The notes under the pieces: model-generated
The model's database searches: none
What the model saw: the letters and a program-made list of their open reading frames with translations, nothing else
Told to the model about the DNA's origin: nothing
NCBI RefSeq assembly: GCF_024502345.1
Contig: NZ_JALDNN010000001.1
From: Escherichia coli
GTDB taxonomy: Bacteria > Pseudomonadota > Gammaproteobacteria > Enterobacterales > Enterobacteriaceae
Length of the DNA stretch: 64,000 nt
Direction: 5' to 3' (one strand)
Part shown: one piece after another, positions 16,111-22,069 of the stretch
Layout: every line of letters starts with the position of its first letter
How positions within the stretch are numbered: position 1 is the stretch's first letter
Made by a program: the position numbers and the translations under genes

Positions 16111-17262
16111 ATGGCATCTTCAACTTTCTTTATTCCTTCTGTGAATGTCATCGGCGCTGATTCATTGACTGATGCAATGAATATGATGGCAGATTATGGA
16201 TTTACCCGTACCTTAATTGTCACTGACAGTATGTTAACGAAATTAGGTATGGCGGGCGATGTGCAAAAAGCACTGGAAGAACGCAATATTTTTAGCGTTA
16301 TTTATGATGGCACCCAACCTAACCCCACCACGGAAAACGTCGCCGCAGGTTTGAAATTACTTAAAGAAAATAATTGCGATAGCGTGATCTCCTTAGGCGG
16401 TGGTTCTCCACACGACTGCGCAAAAGGTATTGCGCTGGTGGCAGCCAATGGCGGCGATATTCGCGATTACGAAGGCGTTGACCGCTCTGCAAAACCGCAG
16501 CTGCCGATGATCGCCATCAACACCACTGCGGGTACGGCCTCTGAAATGACCCGTTTCTGCATCATCACTGACGAAGCGCGTCATATCAAAATGGCGATTG
16601 TTGATAAACATGTCACTCCGCTGCTTTCTGTCAATGACTCCTCTCTGATGATTGGTATGCCGAAGTCACTGACCGCCGCAACGGGTATGGATGCCTTAAC
16701 GCACGCTATCGAAGCATATGTTTCTATTGCCGCCACGCCGATCACTGACGCTTGTGCACTGAAAGCCGTGACCATGATTGCCGAAAACCTGCCGTTAGCC
16801 GTTGAAGATGGCAGTAATGCGAAAGCGCGTGAAGCAATGGCTTATGCCCAGTTCCTTGCTGGTATGGCGTTCAATAATGCTTCTCTGGGTTATGTTCATG
16901 CGATGGCGCACCAGCTGGGCGGTTTCTACAACCTGCCACACGGTGTATGTAACGCCGTTTTGCTGCCGCATGTTCAGGTATTCAACAGCAAAGTCGCCGC
17001 CGCACGTCTGCGTGACTGTGCCGCTGCAATGGGCGTGAACGTGACAGGTAAAAACGATGCGGAAGGTGCTGAAGCCTGCATTAACGCCATCCGTGAACTG
17101 GCGAAGAAAGTGGATATCCCGGCAGGCCTACGCGACCTGAACGTGAAAGAAGAAGATTTCGCGGTTCTGGCGACTAATGCCCTGAAAGATGCCTGTGGTT
17201 TTACTAACCCGATCCAGGCAACTCACGAAGAAATTGTGGCGATTTATCGCGCAGCGATGTAA
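16111..17262 (+). CDS. yiaY: Iron-containing alcohol dehydrogenase YiaY
   Basis: 383-aa ORF with Fe-ADH family features. Confidence 0.9.
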
Positions 17263-17277
17263 TCATCATTTCCACAA

Positions 17278-17304
17278 CGGCTGGCAAATTGTCAGCCGCT
17301 TTTT
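17278..17304 (+). terminator. Terminator-like hairpin after yiaY
   Basis: cggctg-gcaaattgt-cagccg followed by cttttt. Confidence 0.5.
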
Positions 17305-17426
17305 CAACTATCTCTGTAACCCTTGCCCGTAAATTCGTGATAGCTGTCGTAAAGCTGTTACCGACTGGCGAAGATTTCGCCAGTCACGTCTACCCTTGTT
17401 ATACCTCACACCGCAAGGAGACGATC

Positions 17427-18965
17427 ATGACCAATAATCCCCCTTCAGCACAGATTAAGCCCGGCGAGTATGGTTTCTCCCTCAAGTTAAAAGCCCGCTA
17501 TGACAACTTTATTGGCGGCGAATGGGTAGCCCCTGCCGACGGCGAGTATTACCAGAATCTGACGCCGGTGACCGGGCAGCTGCTGTGCGAAGTGGCGTCT
17601 TCGGGCAAACGAGACATCGATCTGGCGCTGGATGCTGCGCACAAAGTGAAAGATAAATGGGCGCACACCTCGGTGCAGGATCGCGCGGCGATTCTGTTTA
17701 AGATTGCCGATCGAATGGAACAAAACCTTGAGCTGTTAGCGACGGCTGAAACCTGGGATAACGGCAAACCCATTCGCGAAACCAGTGCTGCCGACGTGCC
17801 GCTGGCGATTGACCATTTTCGCTATTTCGCCTCGTGTATTCGGGCGCAGGAAGGTGGGATCAGTGAAGTTGATAGCGAAACCGTGGCCTATCATTTCCAT
17901 GAACCGTTAGGCGTGGTGGGGCAGATTATCCCGTGGAACTTCCCGCTGCTGATGGCGAGCTGGAAAATGGCTCCCGCGCTGGCGGCGGGCAACTGTGTGG
18001 TGCTGAAACCCGCACGTCTTACCCCGCTTTCTGTACTGCTGCTAATGGAAATCGTCGGTGATTTACTGCCGCCGGGCGTGGTGAACGTGGTCAACGGCGC
18101 AGGTGGGGAAATTGGCGAATATCTGGCGACCTCGAAACGCATCGCCAAAGTGGCGTTTACCGGCTCAACGGAAGTGGGCCAACAAATTATGCAATACGCC
18201 ACGCAAAACATTATTCCGGTGACGCTGGAGCTGGGCGGCAAATCGCCAAATATCTTCTTTGCTGATGTGATGGATGAAGAAGATGCCTTTTTCGATAAAG
18301 CGCTGGAAGGCTTTGCACTGTTTGCCTTTAACCAGGGTGAAGTTTGCACCTGTCCGAGTCGTGCCTTAGTGCAGGAGTCAATCTACGAACGCTTTATGGA
18401 ACGCGCCATCCGCCGTGTCGAAAGCATTCGCAGCGGTAACCCACTCGACAGCGTGACGCAAATGGGCGCGCAGGTTTCTCACGGGCAACTGGAAACCATC
18501 CTCAACTACATTGATATCGGTAAAAAAGAGGGCGCAGACGTGCTCACCGGCGGGCGGCGCAAGCTGCTGGAAGGTGAACTGAAAGACGGCTACTACCTCG
18601 AACCGACGATTCTGTTTGGTCAGAACAATATGCGGGTGTTCCAGGAGGAGATTTTTGGCCCGGTGCTGGCGGTGACCACCTTCAAAACGATGGAAGAAGC
18701 GCTGGAGCTGGCGAACGATACGCAATATGGCCTGGGCGCAGGCGTCTGGAGTCGTAACGGTAATCTGGCCTATAAGATGGGGCGCGGCATTCAGGCCGGG
18801 CGCGTGTGGACCAACTGCTATCACGCTTACCCGGCACATGCTGCGTTTGGTGGCTACAAACAATCAGGTATCGGTCGCGAAACCCACAAGATGATGCTGG
18901 AGCATTACCAGCAAACCAAGTGCCTGCTGGTGAGCTACTCGGATAAACCGTTGGGGCTGTTCTGA
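17427..18965 (+). CDS. aldB: Aldehyde dehydrogenase B
   Basis: Protein begins [15 protein letters not shown], 512 aa; ORF-track entry carries a 46-codon upstream extension. Confidence 0.92.
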
Positions 18966-18989
18966 TATAAGAAGCTGGTCGCATTGGGT

Positions 18990-19085
18990 ATTCATTGCCT
19001 GATGCGACGCTTACGCGTCTTATCATGCCTACGGGAACCTGACCGTAGGCCGGATAAGGCGTACACGCCGCATCCGGCATAAACA
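18990..19085. repeat. REP/BIME palindromic elements downstream of aldB
   Basis: gcctgatgcgacgcttacgcgtcttatcatgcctac and gtaggccggataaggcgtacacgccgcatccggc, a typical inverted REP pair. Confidence 0.6.
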
Positions 19086-19509
19086 AAGCGCACGTTGTTA
19101 CAATTTACGTTTTAAACCTACGTGCGCAATAACCCAGACTACGCCAACAGAAGTGCGTTTCTGGGGCGTGTTTTGTCAGGAGTTTAATCTCGCGTTTCGA
19201 TGGTGAGCGGGCGAACCAGGCCGTAAATCACCATTGGTGATCCGAGGCCAATCAGCAATAAACGGTAGATAATTGAAGGTTTAATACGCTTAATCTGTAC
19301 TGTGGATGTTTTACTGGAGTTATTCATTAGTTTGGCCAATAGTTCCACTATTTCAATATGATAAACCTCGTCCTGTTGAAAAACCAGACAGCACATTTCA
19401 GAAAGTATATAAAAAACAATATGTCGTTATATAAATAAGGAAATTGCACTGCATCATGGCATTTCATAATATGCGTTAATTGTTCTTTTTTATATTCTTT
19501 GAGGGAAAT

Positions 19510-19833
19510 ATGTTCCTGGACTATTTTGCACTGGGAGTGCTTATTTTTGTATTTCTGGTGATATTCTATGGGATTATTATTTTACATGATATTCCCTACC
19601 TGATTGCTAAAAAACGTAATCATCCTCATGCCGACGCCATTCATGTTGCTGGTTGGGTGAGTCTTTTTACGCTGCATGTTATCTGGCCATTTTTGTGGAT
19701 TTGGGCCACGCTTTACCGCCCGGAGCGGGGATGGGGAATGCAAAACCATGACTCCTCCGTTGTGCAACTACAACAGCGTATTGCCGGGCTGGAGAAACAG
19801 CTCGCCGACATCAAATCCTCTTCTGCCGAGTAA
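19510..19833 (+). CDS. yiaW: Small inner-membrane protein YiaW (DUF3302), paralog of YibI
   Basis: Begins [21 protein letters not shown], 107 aa; near-identical N-terminal region to YibI. Confidence 0.85.
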
Positions 19834-19838
19834 TACTT

Positions 19839-20975
19839 ATGGATTTACTGATTATTTTGACCTATGTGGCTTTTGCATGGGCAATGTTTAAGATCTTCAA
19901 AATTCCTGTAAATAAATGGACCATTCCCACAGCGGCCCTGGGTGGCATATTTATTGTCAGTGGTTTAATTCTGTTAATGAACTATAACCATCCGTATACC
20001 TTCAAAGCGCAAAAAGCGGTTATTTCTATTCCTGTTGTCCCACAGGTGACAGGTGTGGTGATTGAAGTGACGGATAAGAAAAATACGCTGATTAAAAAAG
20101 GTGAGGTGCTATTTCGACTGGACCCGACGCGTTATCAGGCGCGGGTGGATAGGCTGATGGCGGATATCGTTACCGCAGAACATAAACAGCGGGCGTTGGG
20201 CGCAGAGTTAGATGAGATGGCGGCGAATACTCAGCAGGCAAAGGCCACGCGGGATAAATTCGCTAAAGAGTATCAGCGTTACGCACGCGGCAGCCAGGCG
20301 AAAGTAAACCCGTTTTCAGAACGCGATATTGATGTGGCGCGGCAAAATTATCTGGCGCAGGAAGCCTCCGTAAAGTCATCGGCGGCGGAACAAAAACAGA
20401 TCCAGAGCCAGCTGGATAGCCTGGTGTTGGGTGAACATTCTCAAATCGCCAGCCTGAAAGCGCAGCTCGCGGAAGCAAAATATAACCTTGAGCAGACGAT
20501 AGTGCGTGCGCCGAGCGATGGTTATGTGACCCAGGTGCTGATTCGTCCGGGTACCTATGCCGCGTCGCTGCCGCTACGTCCGGTGATGGTGTTTATACCC
20601 GATCAGAAACGACAAATCGTGGCGCAGTTCCGTCAGAACTCCTTGCTGCGCCTGGCTCCCGGCGATGATGCGGAAGTGGTATTTAACGCTCTGCCAGGCA
20701 AAGTGTTCAGCGGTAAGCTGGCAGCCATTAGTCCAGCTGTTCCCGGCGGAGCTTATCAGTCGACCGGCACCTTACAGACGTTAAACACAGCGCCGGGTTC
20801 AGATGGCGTTATCGCGACCATTGAACTGAATGAGCACACTGATTTGAGCGCTTTACCAGACGGTATTTACGCCCAGGTGGCGGTCTACTCTGATCATTTC
20901 AGCCATGTCTCGGTGATGCGCAAAGTGTTATTACGCATGACCAGCTGGGTGCATTACCTTTATCTCGATCATTAA
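19839..20975 (+). CDS. yiaV: HlyD-family membrane-fusion-like protein YiaV, paralog of YibH
   Basis: 378 aa, collinear with YibH at roughly 75 percent identity by eye. Confidence 0.85.
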
Positions 20976-21946
20976 TCTTCGCTTTCCGCCGCTTGTTCAG
21001 GCCGCAGTTGCTGCGACTGAGCAAGCTGGTGGCGAATTTCACGCAGCATTTCATCCAGCACATACTGGACCCGCCAGGGCTGGTATTCCCGTTTACGGAA
21101 GATAGCCACCAGATCCAGCCACCATTCATACGGGTGCTGAAAGCAGGGCACCAGCGTGCCGTCTTGCAGATCGCTCTGCACACTTTTGTCTGGCGCAAAC
21201 ACAATCCCCAGGTGATTTCGTGCCAGCTCCAGCGCCGATTGCGTGTTGTCGCAAACGTAATTTCCCTTCACGCGATAATCCCGCACCTCTTTACTCCCAG
21301 CGACGTTGAAGCGCCAGATATTCGCGTCGTCGATCATCATCGAGTCGATCAAAATACAGGAGTGATGTTCGAGTTCGTCAGGACGGCTAATGGGATGTTT
21401 CTCAAGATAGCGCTGGCTGGCATAAGCGGTTACGGCATATTGGGTAATAAAACTGGCAACCAGCGATTCATCTTTTGGTGGGGCATAGCTGATTAAAACA
21501 TCACAATCATCAGGAAATTCGACGCCTTCATAAAAGGCATTACGCTCAAGATTGCAGGTTTTTAGCGATAAGGTGATATCACCGATATCTTTAATTTTAT
21601 CGATTACATGTTTGGATAAATAGGTAATTATGCCGGTTGGGGCGTAGATGGTGACCCGACCACGTTTCTCATGCTTATAATCTGCAATAAAATTATTAAG
21701 CTGCTCGTTTCTGTCCAGCATGTCGTTGATGTACGGTAACAGCGCGGTACCAAAAGGTGTGAGCATCAGCTGCCGGGTGGTTCGGTCAAAGACTTTTAAA
21801 CCCACTTTTGATTCAAAATCAGCAAGGTATTTGCTGACGTTGGCCTGTGCGATGCCAAGTACAGTCGCGGCATGGCTGATATTTTCACTGGCAGCGATTA
21901 CCGAGATAATTTTTAACTCCCGGTACTTAAGTTGTAATTTTGTCAT
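20972..21946 (-). CDS. yiaU: LysR-family transcriptional regulator YiaU
   Basis: 324 aa with N-terminal HTH; convergent with yiaV, 4-bp stop overlap; divergent from yiaT. Confidence 0.88.
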
Positions 21947-22069
21947 CGCAACAGCCCAATTATATATAATTTTATATATTACTATATAAATATGAATCTT
22001 GCACCGGAGAAATTGTAAGCATTACTATGCCGATTCTTTTTTATCTTATTTTAAAATGGAATACCGGAC

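What the first reader, a model, noticed from the sequence alone, without database searches (positions are those of the whole stretch)
19184..19396. Candidate small membrane-protein ORF between aldB and yiaW
A minus-strand ORF (up to 70 codons; 47 from the internal Met, MNNSSKTSTVQIKRIKPSIIYRLLLIGLGSPMVIYGLVRPLTIETRD) has a hydrophilic N-terminus followed by one hydrophobic helix, the architecture of many bona fide small membrane proteins. Its ribosome-binding sites are weak, so this may be chance.
Basis: seen in the sequence. Interest (0 to 1): 0.25.

Follow-up and report, generated by a model that had tools for sequence, protein, structure and literature searches.

The report
Deletion relic of a membrane-protein gene
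The small ORF between aldB and yiaW is real and not a chance ORF, but it is what remains of a 104-codon membrane-protein gene after an in-frame 171-bp deletion, and it now evolves as if unconstrained, so it is most likely a gene relic and not a working small protein.

Summary
The ORF is exactly as described: 19184-19396 on the minus strand, 70 codons, or 47 from the ATG at 19327. NCBI's PGAP pipeline annotates the 47-codon form as 'hypothetical protein' in most E. coli genomes. The MG1655 reference record annotates no gene there.

Its length alone is not beyond chance. Homology explains it. A few E. coli strains, Escherichia sp. E1V33 and E. whittamii carry a 104-codon gene at this position. 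The window lacks 171 bp (57 codons) of that gene, lost between two imperfect 15-bp direct repeats. The start codon, the first transmembrane helix, the last 9 codons and the stop codon remain in frame.

The full-length protein belongs to a widespread family of about 100 residues that has no Pfam or NCBIfam model. Its orthologues in Citrobacter and Franconibacter also lie convergent to aldB. The deletion removes the family's conserved core.

Full-length alleles are under purifying selection (omega about 0.1). Deletion alleles show 19 nonsynonymous and 8 synonymous changes (omega about 0.8). That ratio is indistinguishable from neutrality.

The ribosome-binding site is weak. No minus-strand promoter was found, and none of the ribosome-profiling tables I could read lists this ORF.

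Verdict: an unannotated gene relic of low interest. A residual function as a mini-protein is not excluded.

The parts
19184..19327 (-). 47-codon ORF (MNNSSKTSTVQIKRIKPSIIYRLLLIGLGSPMVIYGLVRPLTIETRD). It is the in-frame 171-bp deletion allele of an ancestral 104-codon membrane-protein gene: codons 1-38 and 96-104 of the full-length gene plus the original stop.
   Evidence: ORF list. PGAP annotation as WP_001066080.1 'hypothetical protein'. Alignment to full-length alleles in E. coli E400634, Escherichia sp. E1V33 and E. whittamii. The family HMM still detects it weakly, E 2.6e-6.
19211..19225 (-). Deletion junction. This is the single hybrid copy (TACGGCCTGGTTCGC) of two imperfect 15-bp direct repeats that lie 171 bp apart in the full-length gene (TACGGYCTGGTTTGC ... 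TACAGCCTGGTYCGC).
   Evidence: The segment aligns on both sides of the extra 157-171 bp in L004 and L005. The repeats are visible in the alignment. Coordinates were read. Some strains carry TGC in place of CGC at the junction codon.
19328..19396 (-). 23-codon in-frame upstream extension that gives the '70-codon' ORF. It is non-coding spacer between the relic and the yiaWV promoter, and it is hypervariable.
   Evidence: Omega is 0.6-1.6. The ATG is GTG in most strains, and ECOCN22 has a 1-bp deletion and a TAA here. Orthologues in Citrobacter and Franconibacter start at the MNN/MNK Met. Diversity is pi 0.104.
19116..19187 (+). Relic of the 3' end of the antitoxin gene hicB (TYVRNNPDYANRSAFLG----RVLSGV*). 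It has an internal 12-bp deletion, and its stop codon overlaps the stop of the minus-strand ORF. hicA and the rest of hicB are absent.
   Evidence: tblastn with HicB of strain E400634 gives 78% identity and E 2e-9. Intact hicAB sits at this site in E400634, E1V33 and other strains.
18955..19128 (.). REP-type palindromic repeats downstream of aldB. They occupy the place of hicA and the 5' part of hicB.
   Evidence: Three sub-threshold Rfam naRNA4 matches of 33-39 bits against a gathering score of 59.5. The segment has multiple copies per genome in blastn.
19385..19413 (+). Published constitutive sigma-70 promoter of yiaWV (CAGACA-17-TATAAA) in an H-NS-bound spacer. Its -35 hexamer lies on top of the ATG of the 70-codon ORF.
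   Evidence: Shimada et al. 2014, PMC3946193. The exact pattern occurs once in the window.
17427..18965 (+). aldB, the flanking gene. It is convergent with the relic, as in other enterobacteria.
   Evidence: The Franconibacter neighbour of the orthologue is 93% identical to AldB.
19510..19833 (+). yiaW (DUF3302), the flanking gene. It is divergent from the relic.

Best explanation
The ORF is a gene relic. The ancestor of Escherichia carried a gene for a small inner-membrane protein of about 104 residues, convergent with aldB, and Citrobacter amalonaticus/farmeri and Franconibacter still carry it there. In Escherichia a hicAB toxin-antitoxin pair came to lie between aldB and this gene. In the lineage that now makes up about 70% of sequenced E. 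coli, including K-12, two things followed. First, hicAB was lost, leaving 72 nt of hicB. Second, 171 bp (57 codons) of the membrane-protein gene were deleted between two imperfect 15-bp direct repeats. The likely route is slipped-strand or short-homology recombination (inferred). Because 171 is a multiple of three, the original start codon, the first transmembrane helix, the last nine codons and the original stop stayed in one frame. That produces a 47-codon ORF that looks like a small membrane protein. The deletion removed the conserved core of the family: the WN(D/G)..HG hairpin, the second long hydrophobic helix and the GLWxYS motif. Since then the remnant has accumulated changes at the neutral ratio. 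It is therefore most likely non-functional, and at best poorly expressed. Shown here: the homology, the deletion, the synteny and the relaxed constraint. Inferred: the deletion mechanism, the order of events and the lack of expression.
For: 1. Full-length allele. Strain E400634 has a 104-codon ORF (127 from an upstream GTG) at the same site. The window's ORF equals its codons 1-38 plus 96-104. The gene is also full length in Escherichia sp. E1V33, E. whittamii and an E. coli-like metagenome contig that lacks hicAB.
2. Real family. An exhaustive HMMER search with the 104-aa protein finds 169 cluster representatives at E<=1e-3. They are about 100-125 aa and align end to end. Conserved motifs are visible in the alignment.
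3. Synteny. The 57%- and 52%-identical orthologues in Citrobacter and Franconibacter lie convergent to the AldB orthologue.
4. Selection. Full-length alleles have omega 0.09-0.13. Deletion alleles (18 haplotypes from 15 genomes and 49 metagenome contigs) show 19 N: 8 S, omega about 0.78. Neutrality is not rejected (p=0.51) and omega<=0.3 is rejected (p=0.015). The contrast with full-length alleles gives Fisher p=0.007. The flanking genes yiaW and yiaV have omega 0-0.14. Nucleotide diversity of the relic (0.0475) is close to that of yiaW third codon positions (0.053).
5. Frequency. Of 5426 complete E. coli genomes, 3800 match the gene but only 28 hold it full length.
6. Other losses in the genus. 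There is a 5' deletion in Escherichia sp. MOD1-EC7003. In strains with a GH127/MFS island only the last 10 or so codons are kept.
7. Expression signals. The Shine-Dalgarno pairing is weak. The scan found no sigma-70-like promoter on the minus strand. The spacer is H-NS-bound. MG1655 has no gene annotated here. The ribosome-profiling supplements I could read have no entry for it.
Against: The 47-codon frame is intact in all 15 genomes sampled and in 48 of 49 metagenome alleles. This is weak evidence, because the probability of no stop among 21 random changes is 0.39. Residues 11-26 (QIKRIKPSIIYRLLLI) are almost invariant at the protein level; only one I15S variant was seen. With 27 polymorphisms, omega values of 0.4-0.5 cannot be excluded. 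Absence from the ribosome-profiling lists is weak evidence too: the Stringer supplement was truncated when stored and the Weaver and Meydan tables were not available. Many validated E. coli small proteins also have poor Shine-Dalgarno sequences (own knowledge). PGAP keeps calling it a gene.
Confidence: 0.82

Rival explanations
1. The deletion product is itself a functional single-pass mini membrane protein. On this view, a 47-residue protein made of the ancestral N-terminus, the first transmembrane helix and a short tail was retained by selection in most E. coli after the deletion.
For: The ORF is intact in nearly all alleles sampled. Residues 11-26 are nearly invariant. The ancestral start codon and upstream region are retained. 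PGAP annotates it in most genomes. Omega up to about 0.5 is not excluded.
Against: The N:S ratio is neutral and significantly higher than in the full-length gene. Every strongly conserved family motif has been lost. Nonsynonymous and radical variants occur within the helix (G27V, L37R, I15S, P40L) and at the junction codon (R/C). Translation signals are weak and the region is H-NS-bound. MG1655 has no gene here and the profiling lists I could read have no entry.
Confidence: 0.12
2. It is a chance ORF in AT-rich non-coding DNA with no coding history.
For: ORFs of this length are expected by chance in a spacer of this size (P=0.58 for at least 47 codons). The region is 36% G+C.
Against: The ORF is collinear with, and 95-97% identical in protein to, the two ends of a 104-codon gene that has 169 homologue clusters and syntenic orthologues in other genera.
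Confidence: 0.01
3. It is a type I toxin-like small hydrophobic peptide, possibly linked to the neighbouring hicAB remnant.
For: It is a small hydrophobic ORF in an intergenic region next to a toxin-antitoxin relic.
Against: No antisense or other RNA family match overlaps it; the only Rfam hits are REP-like. There are no PADLOC, Pfam or NCBIfam matches. Its full-length orthologues occur without hicAB in Citrobacter, Franconibacter, E. whittamii and L107. It is single-copy.
Confidence: 0.02
4. The DNA is kept mainly as part of the yiaWV upstream regulatory and H-NS-binding region, and the ORF is incidental. This is compatible with the relic explanation.
For: A constitutive yiaWV promoter and H-NS binding are reported in this spacer. 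The region is 36% G+C.
Against: Diversity across the relic is at the level of synonymous sites, and the 69 nt next to the promoter are hypervariable. Neither suggests sequence constraint. Related genera keep only about 45 bp proximal to yiaW.
Confidence: 0.25

Closest known systems
104-aa hypothetical inner-membrane protein of Escherichia (WP_001064341.1 in strain E400634), with orthologues in Citrobacter amalonaticus/farmeri and Franconibacter
   Same: Same locus, strand, start and stop codon. Residues 1-38 and 96-104 are collinear and nearly identical. The position convergent to aldB is the same.
   Different: The window lacks residues 39-95. That segment holds the WN(D/G)..HG hairpin, the long second hydrophobic helix and the GLWxYS motif. 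It evolves at a neutral N:S ratio, against omega about 0.1 for the full-length gene.
Validated E. coli small membrane proteins of 50 residues or fewer, found by tagging and ribosome profiling, such as AcrZ, KdpF and MgtS (named from own knowledge)
   Same: It has 47 residues, a charged N-terminus and one predicted transmembrane helix, and it lies in an intergenic region.
   Different: There is no evidence of translation in the tables I could read. It is not conserved as a 47-codon unit outside E. coli. No purifying selection is detectable. Its origin as a deletion remnant is documented.
Bacterial pseudogenes and gene relics made by short-repeat-mediated internal deletion
   Same: An intact homologue exists in close relatives at the syntenic site. 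The deletion is bounded by short direct repeats. Constraint is relaxed, and the same gene has been lost independently in other lineages of the genus.
   Different: The deletion is in frame, so no stop or frameshift marks the relic. Annotation pipelines therefore call it a gene rather than a pseudogene.
Type I toxins (Ibs, Ldr, Hok, TisB class; own knowledge)
   Same: Small size and a hydrophobic helix.
   Different: There is no antisense RNA, no family match and no repeated copies, and the ancestry from a 104-aa protein family is different.

Membership tests
Unnamed family of ~100-aa membrane proteins (parent of the ORF; 169 cluster representatives) | End-to-end alignment of about 95 residues with other members | tested here: not met
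   The full-length Escherichia allele aligns over residues 1-103. The window's ORF covers only the first 38 and last 9 positions. The family HMM scores it 26 bits, against 129 bits for the full-length allele.
Unnamed family of ~100-aa membrane proteins (parent of the ORF; 169 cluster representatives) | Conserved motifs: G40, G46, N53, the invariant G59 (WN(D/G)..HG) and G88-L89 (GLWxYS) | tested here: not met
   All these columns fall inside the 57 deleted codons.
Unnamed family of ~100-aa membrane proteins (parent of the ORF; 169 cluster representatives) | Orthologous genomic position (convergent with aldB) | tested here: met
   and the window itself.
Gene relic / pseudogene | An intact homologue at the syntenic site in close relatives, and a definable disabling lesion | tested here: met
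   A 171-bp deletion relative to E400634, E1V33, E. whittamii and L107.
Gene relic / pseudogene | Relaxed selective constraint relative to the intact gene | tested here: met
   19 N: 8 S against about 8-9 N: 20-21 S, Fisher p=0.007. Omega is about 0.78 against about 0.1. The sample is small, and omega 0.4-0.5 is not excluded.
Gene relic / pseudogene | No functional product | not testable with these tools
   This needs ribosome profiling or a tagged allele. Only indirect evidence is available.
Bona fide small membrane protein gene (50 aa or fewer) | One predicted transmembrane helix | tested here: met
   Kyte-Doolittle 19-residue maximum of 1.71 at residues 19-37. The segment corresponds to helix 17-44 of the AlphaFold2 model of the parent.
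Bona fide small membrane protein gene (50 aa or fewer) | The reading frame is conserved under purifying selection in related genomes | tested here: not met
   The 47-codon form is found only in E. coli, and its N:S ratio is neutral.
Bona fide small membrane protein gene (50 aa or fewer) | Evidence of translation | tested here: inconclusive
   No entry in the supplements of Stringer 2021 (file truncated), PIRT-Seq or the acid-stress Ribo-seq study. The Weaver 2019 tables are not held. MG1655 RefSeq has no gene here.
DUF3566 (Pfam PF12089; a label UniRef gives to one Franconibacter orthologue) | Match to the Pfam model | tested here: not met
   No DUF3566 hit for any of the 40 family members, even at E<=10. 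The label was seen.
Type I toxin-antitoxin | A cis-encoded antisense RNA or a known toxin family match | tested here: not met
   Rfam gives only REP-like sub-threshold hits outside the ORF. PADLOC, Pfam and NCBIfam give nothing.
HicAB type II toxin-antitoxin (neighbouring relic at 19116-19187) | Intact hicA and hicB genes | tested here: not met
   Only the last 27 codons of hicB remain, with a 4-codon gap, and there is no hicA match. The pair is intact in E400634.

The most novel reading that the evidence does not exclude
The in-frame deletion created a new 47-residue single-pass membrane protein from the N-terminus and first helix of a three-segment ancestor. On this reading it is still transcribed from the ancestral promoter, translated at low level or only when H-NS silencing is lifted, and kept in about 70% of E. 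coli because it has acquired a function of its own, for example as a modulator of a larger membrane protein. That would be a documented case of a small protein born by truncation of a larger gene.
Probability: 0.1. Interest if true: 0.4.

Novelty: new member of a known kind. Interest (0 to 1): 0.17.

Why it matters
It settles what a recurrent 'hypothetical protein' call is. WP_001066080.1 and its relatives are annotated in thousands of E. coli genomes, and they are the in-frame remnant of a larger gene rather than a small-protein gene. Screens for small proteins in K-12 can give it low priority. The case also shows that in-frame deletions produce pseudogenes that carry no stop or frameshift and so escape pseudogene detection. 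As by-products, the work identifies an unnamed but widespread family of about 100-residue membrane proteins that has no Pfam or NCBIfam model, and it documents the stepwise decay of the aldB-hicAB-yiaW interval in Escherichia.

Tried and rejected
- Rfam at a permissive threshold over 17000-22000 gave only REP-like naRNA4 sub-threshold hits outside the ORF.
- Pfam, NCBIfam, PADLOC and PHROGs on the 47-, 70- and 104-aa proteins and on 40 family members gave nothing meaningful.
- A profile search of PDB sequences gave no hit.
- The 'DUF3566' label on one orthologue was not reproduced.
- Gene neighbourhoods of distant family members share no partner, so context gives no functional inference for the parent family.
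- Literature: the yiaW papers concern an IS1 insertion inside yiaW, not this ORF. The ribosome-profiling and PIRT-Seq supplements have no entry. The Cappable-seq supplement has no coordinate hit. The Weaver 2019 mBio and Thomason 2015 papers are not held.
- I first took the 73-aa protein P0236 for another truncated allele. Its DNA is a full-length 104-codon gene for which the gene caller chose an internal Met, so I dropped the idea.
- Two junction variants exist, CGC and TGC at codon 39. They could mean two independent deletions or one later point change. All deletion alleles share the linked 12-bp deletion in the hicB relic, which favours a single origin. This is not resolved.

Full report
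**Observation.** The window is the E. coli yiaY-aldB-yiaW-yiaV-yiaU region, in reverse orientation relative to K-12. The minus-strand ORF 19184..19396 is present exactly as described. It has 70 codons from the ATG at 19396 and 47 from the ATG at 19327, and the peptide is the one quoted. PGAP annotates the 47-codon form as 'hypothetical protein' (WP_001066080.1 and variants) in most complete E. coli genomes. The MG1655 RefSeq record has no gene between yiaW and aldB.

The hydrophobic stretch has a Kyte-Doolittle 19-residue maximum of 1.71. The ribosome-binding sites are weak: anti-SD pairing is -3.3 and +0.4 kcal/mol, against a random median of -2.5 and -8.5 for aldB. Length is not evidence. 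A random 544-nt spacer of this composition holds an ATG ORF of at least 47 codons with P=0.58 and of at least 70 codons with P=0.17.

**What it is.** Protein searches with the 70-aa sequence found only E. coli entries, with many different called starts. There was no Pfam or NCBIfam match.

I fetched the orthologous yiaW loci from one genome per species and compared them with BLAST. The ORF region is absent from Citrobacter and other genera; only about 45 bp next to yiaW are conserved there. It is mostly replaced in Escherichia sp. MOD1-EC7003. In Escherichia sp. E1V33 and E. whittamii it is present but carries an extra ~160 bp near its 3' end.

Some E. coli strains have hicAB at this site. In strain E400634 PGAP annotates a 104-codon gene (WP_001064341.1) on the minus strand, and its stop overlaps the hicB stop. 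Alignment shows that the window's ORF is this gene minus 171 bp. Codons 1-38 are joined to codons 96-104, in frame, with the original start and stop. The missing segment is bounded in the full-length gene by two imperfect 15-bp direct repeats (TACGGYCTGGTTTGC and TACAGCCTGGTYCGC). The window keeps one hybrid copy at 19211-19225.

Just downstream, 19116-19187 on the plus strand is the last 27 codons of hicB, with a 12-bp internal deletion. hicA and the rest of hicB have been replaced by REP-type repeats.

**The parent gene is real.** An exhaustive HMMER search of 1.84 billion cluster representatives with the 104-aa protein gave 169 hits at E<=1e-3 and 29 at E<=1e-10. Nearly all are 95-130 aa and align end to end. 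The alignment shows conserved positions: G40, G46, N53, the invariant G59 in a WN(D/G)..HG motif, and GLWxYSxFRPL near the C-terminus.

The closest orthologues are in Citrobacter amalonaticus/farmeri (57% identity) and Franconibacter (52%). They lie convergent to the AldB orthologue, without hicAB. The gene is therefore an old neighbour of aldB.

Among the Escherichia full-length alleles, omega is 0.09-0.13. AlphaFold2 (pLDDT 83.7) predicts helix 17-44, a short beta hairpin at 50-57 carrying the WND..HG motif, and a long helix at 59-95.

**The remnant looks unconstrained.**
- The deletion removes every strongly conserved column of the family.
- Frequency: of 5426 complete E. coli genomes, 3800 match the gene, only 28 hold it full length, and about 3770 hold the 144-nt allele. 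A sample of metagenome contigs, retrieved with a 19-mer outside the ORF, gave 49 deletion alleles, 1 full-length allele and 1 allele cut by the contig end.
- Substitution pattern: across 18 distinct haplotypes I count 19 nonsynonymous and 8 synonymous changes after correcting one misclassified site. That gives omega about 0.78. Neutrality is not rejected (p=0.51), and omega<=0.3 is rejected (p=0.015). The full-length alleles show about 8-9 N: 20-21 S; Fisher p=0.007. The flanking genes yiaW and yiaV have omega 0-0.14 in the same strains.
- Diversity: pi in the relic is 0.0475, close to yiaW third codon positions at 0.053. That genome sample was chosen for diversity at this locus, which inflates the value.
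- Intactness: the frame is intact in all but one allele, a 1-nt deletion in L118. This carries little weight, because only 4.3% of single-base changes create a stop, so P(no stop in 21 changes)=0.39.
- The 23-codon extension is not coding. It has omega 0.6-1.6, the ATG is GTG in most strains, and ECOCN22 has a frameshift plus a stop there.

**Expression.** The published yiaWV sigma-70 promoter (CAGACA-17-TATAAA) lies at 19385-19413, in a spacer reported as H-NS-bound. The scan found no promoter-like site on the minus strand. The region is 36% G+C. I found no entry for this ORF in the ribosome-profiling or PIRT-Seq supplements I could read. One file was truncated and two key papers were unavailable.

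**History (inferred).** The ancestral arrangement was aldB convergent with the 104-codon gene. hicAB was then acquired between them in Escherichia; E400634 and E1V33 still show this state. hicAB was later lost, leaving the hicB tail; E. whittamii and contig L107 show this state with the gene still full length. Finally the linked 12-bp and 171-bp deletions gave the allele now dominant in E. coli.

Other lineages lost the gene differently. MOD1-EC7003 has a 5' deletion. Strains with a GH127/MFS island keep only the last 10 or so codons next to hicB.

**Verdict.** The ORF has a genuine membrane-protein ancestry, but it is an in-frame deletion relic and not a small-protein gene. It is a new, unannotated member of a familiar kind (a pseudogene or gene relic), and interest is low. 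The reading that the 47-residue product is still made and useful is not excluded. I put it at about 0.1, and it could be settled by inspecting existing initiation-profiling tracks or with a tagged allele.

Noticed in passing
window 19328-19396: The 69 nt between the relic's ATG and the yiaWV promoter, including its -35 hexamer, are hypervariable among E. coli. Diversity is pi 0.104 and 23 of 69 sites segregate, about twice the level at neighbouring third codon positions. The K-12-type sequence here resembles Escherichia sp. E1V33 and E. whittamii more than other E. coli. The -35 hexamer reads CAGACA, CAGGTA, CACGCA, CAGGCT or CAGGCA in different strains.
   Followed up: partly
window 19116-19187: A relic of the hicB antitoxin 3' end lies here, and its stop codon overlaps the stop of the minus-strand ORF. 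Intact hicAB occupies this site in a minority of E. coli and in Escherichia sp. E1V33.
   Followed up: yes
window 18955-19128: Three overlapping REP-type palindromic units give sub-threshold matches to Rfam naRNA4 (33-39 bits against a gathering score of 59.5). They have several copies per genome.
   Followed up: no
L084 and L085 (E. coli JNEC-KY174 and AR13438): In these strains the interval downstream of aldB holds hicAB, and in AR13438 also a type I restriction endonuclease gene. A GH127 glycoside hydrolase and an MFS transporter follow in place of yiaW in the 2-2.5 kb fetched beyond hicB. The locus is a hotspot of rearrangement.
   Followed up: partly
H1 (E. coli strain ES2, NZ_CM184352.1 130744-132064): An IS1A element is inserted within the aldB-yiaW intergenic region of this strain.
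   Followed up: no
L067 (433-bp contig of a Myxococcus assembly, coverage 0.7): This contig encodes a protein 71% identical to enterobacterial YiaW. It is probably contamination of that assembly.
   Followed up: no
L059-L061, L065 and other loci: A second DUF3302 paralogue, about 75% identical to YiaW, lies next to sequence that appears to encode mannitol-1-phosphate dehydrogenase (identified by eye, not checked) in several other loci (L047, L049, L053 and others). It is presumably the yibI locus (own knowledge).
   Followed up: no
L101 (E. coli CFSAN027350): aldB itself is annotated as frameshifted in this strain.
   Followed up: no
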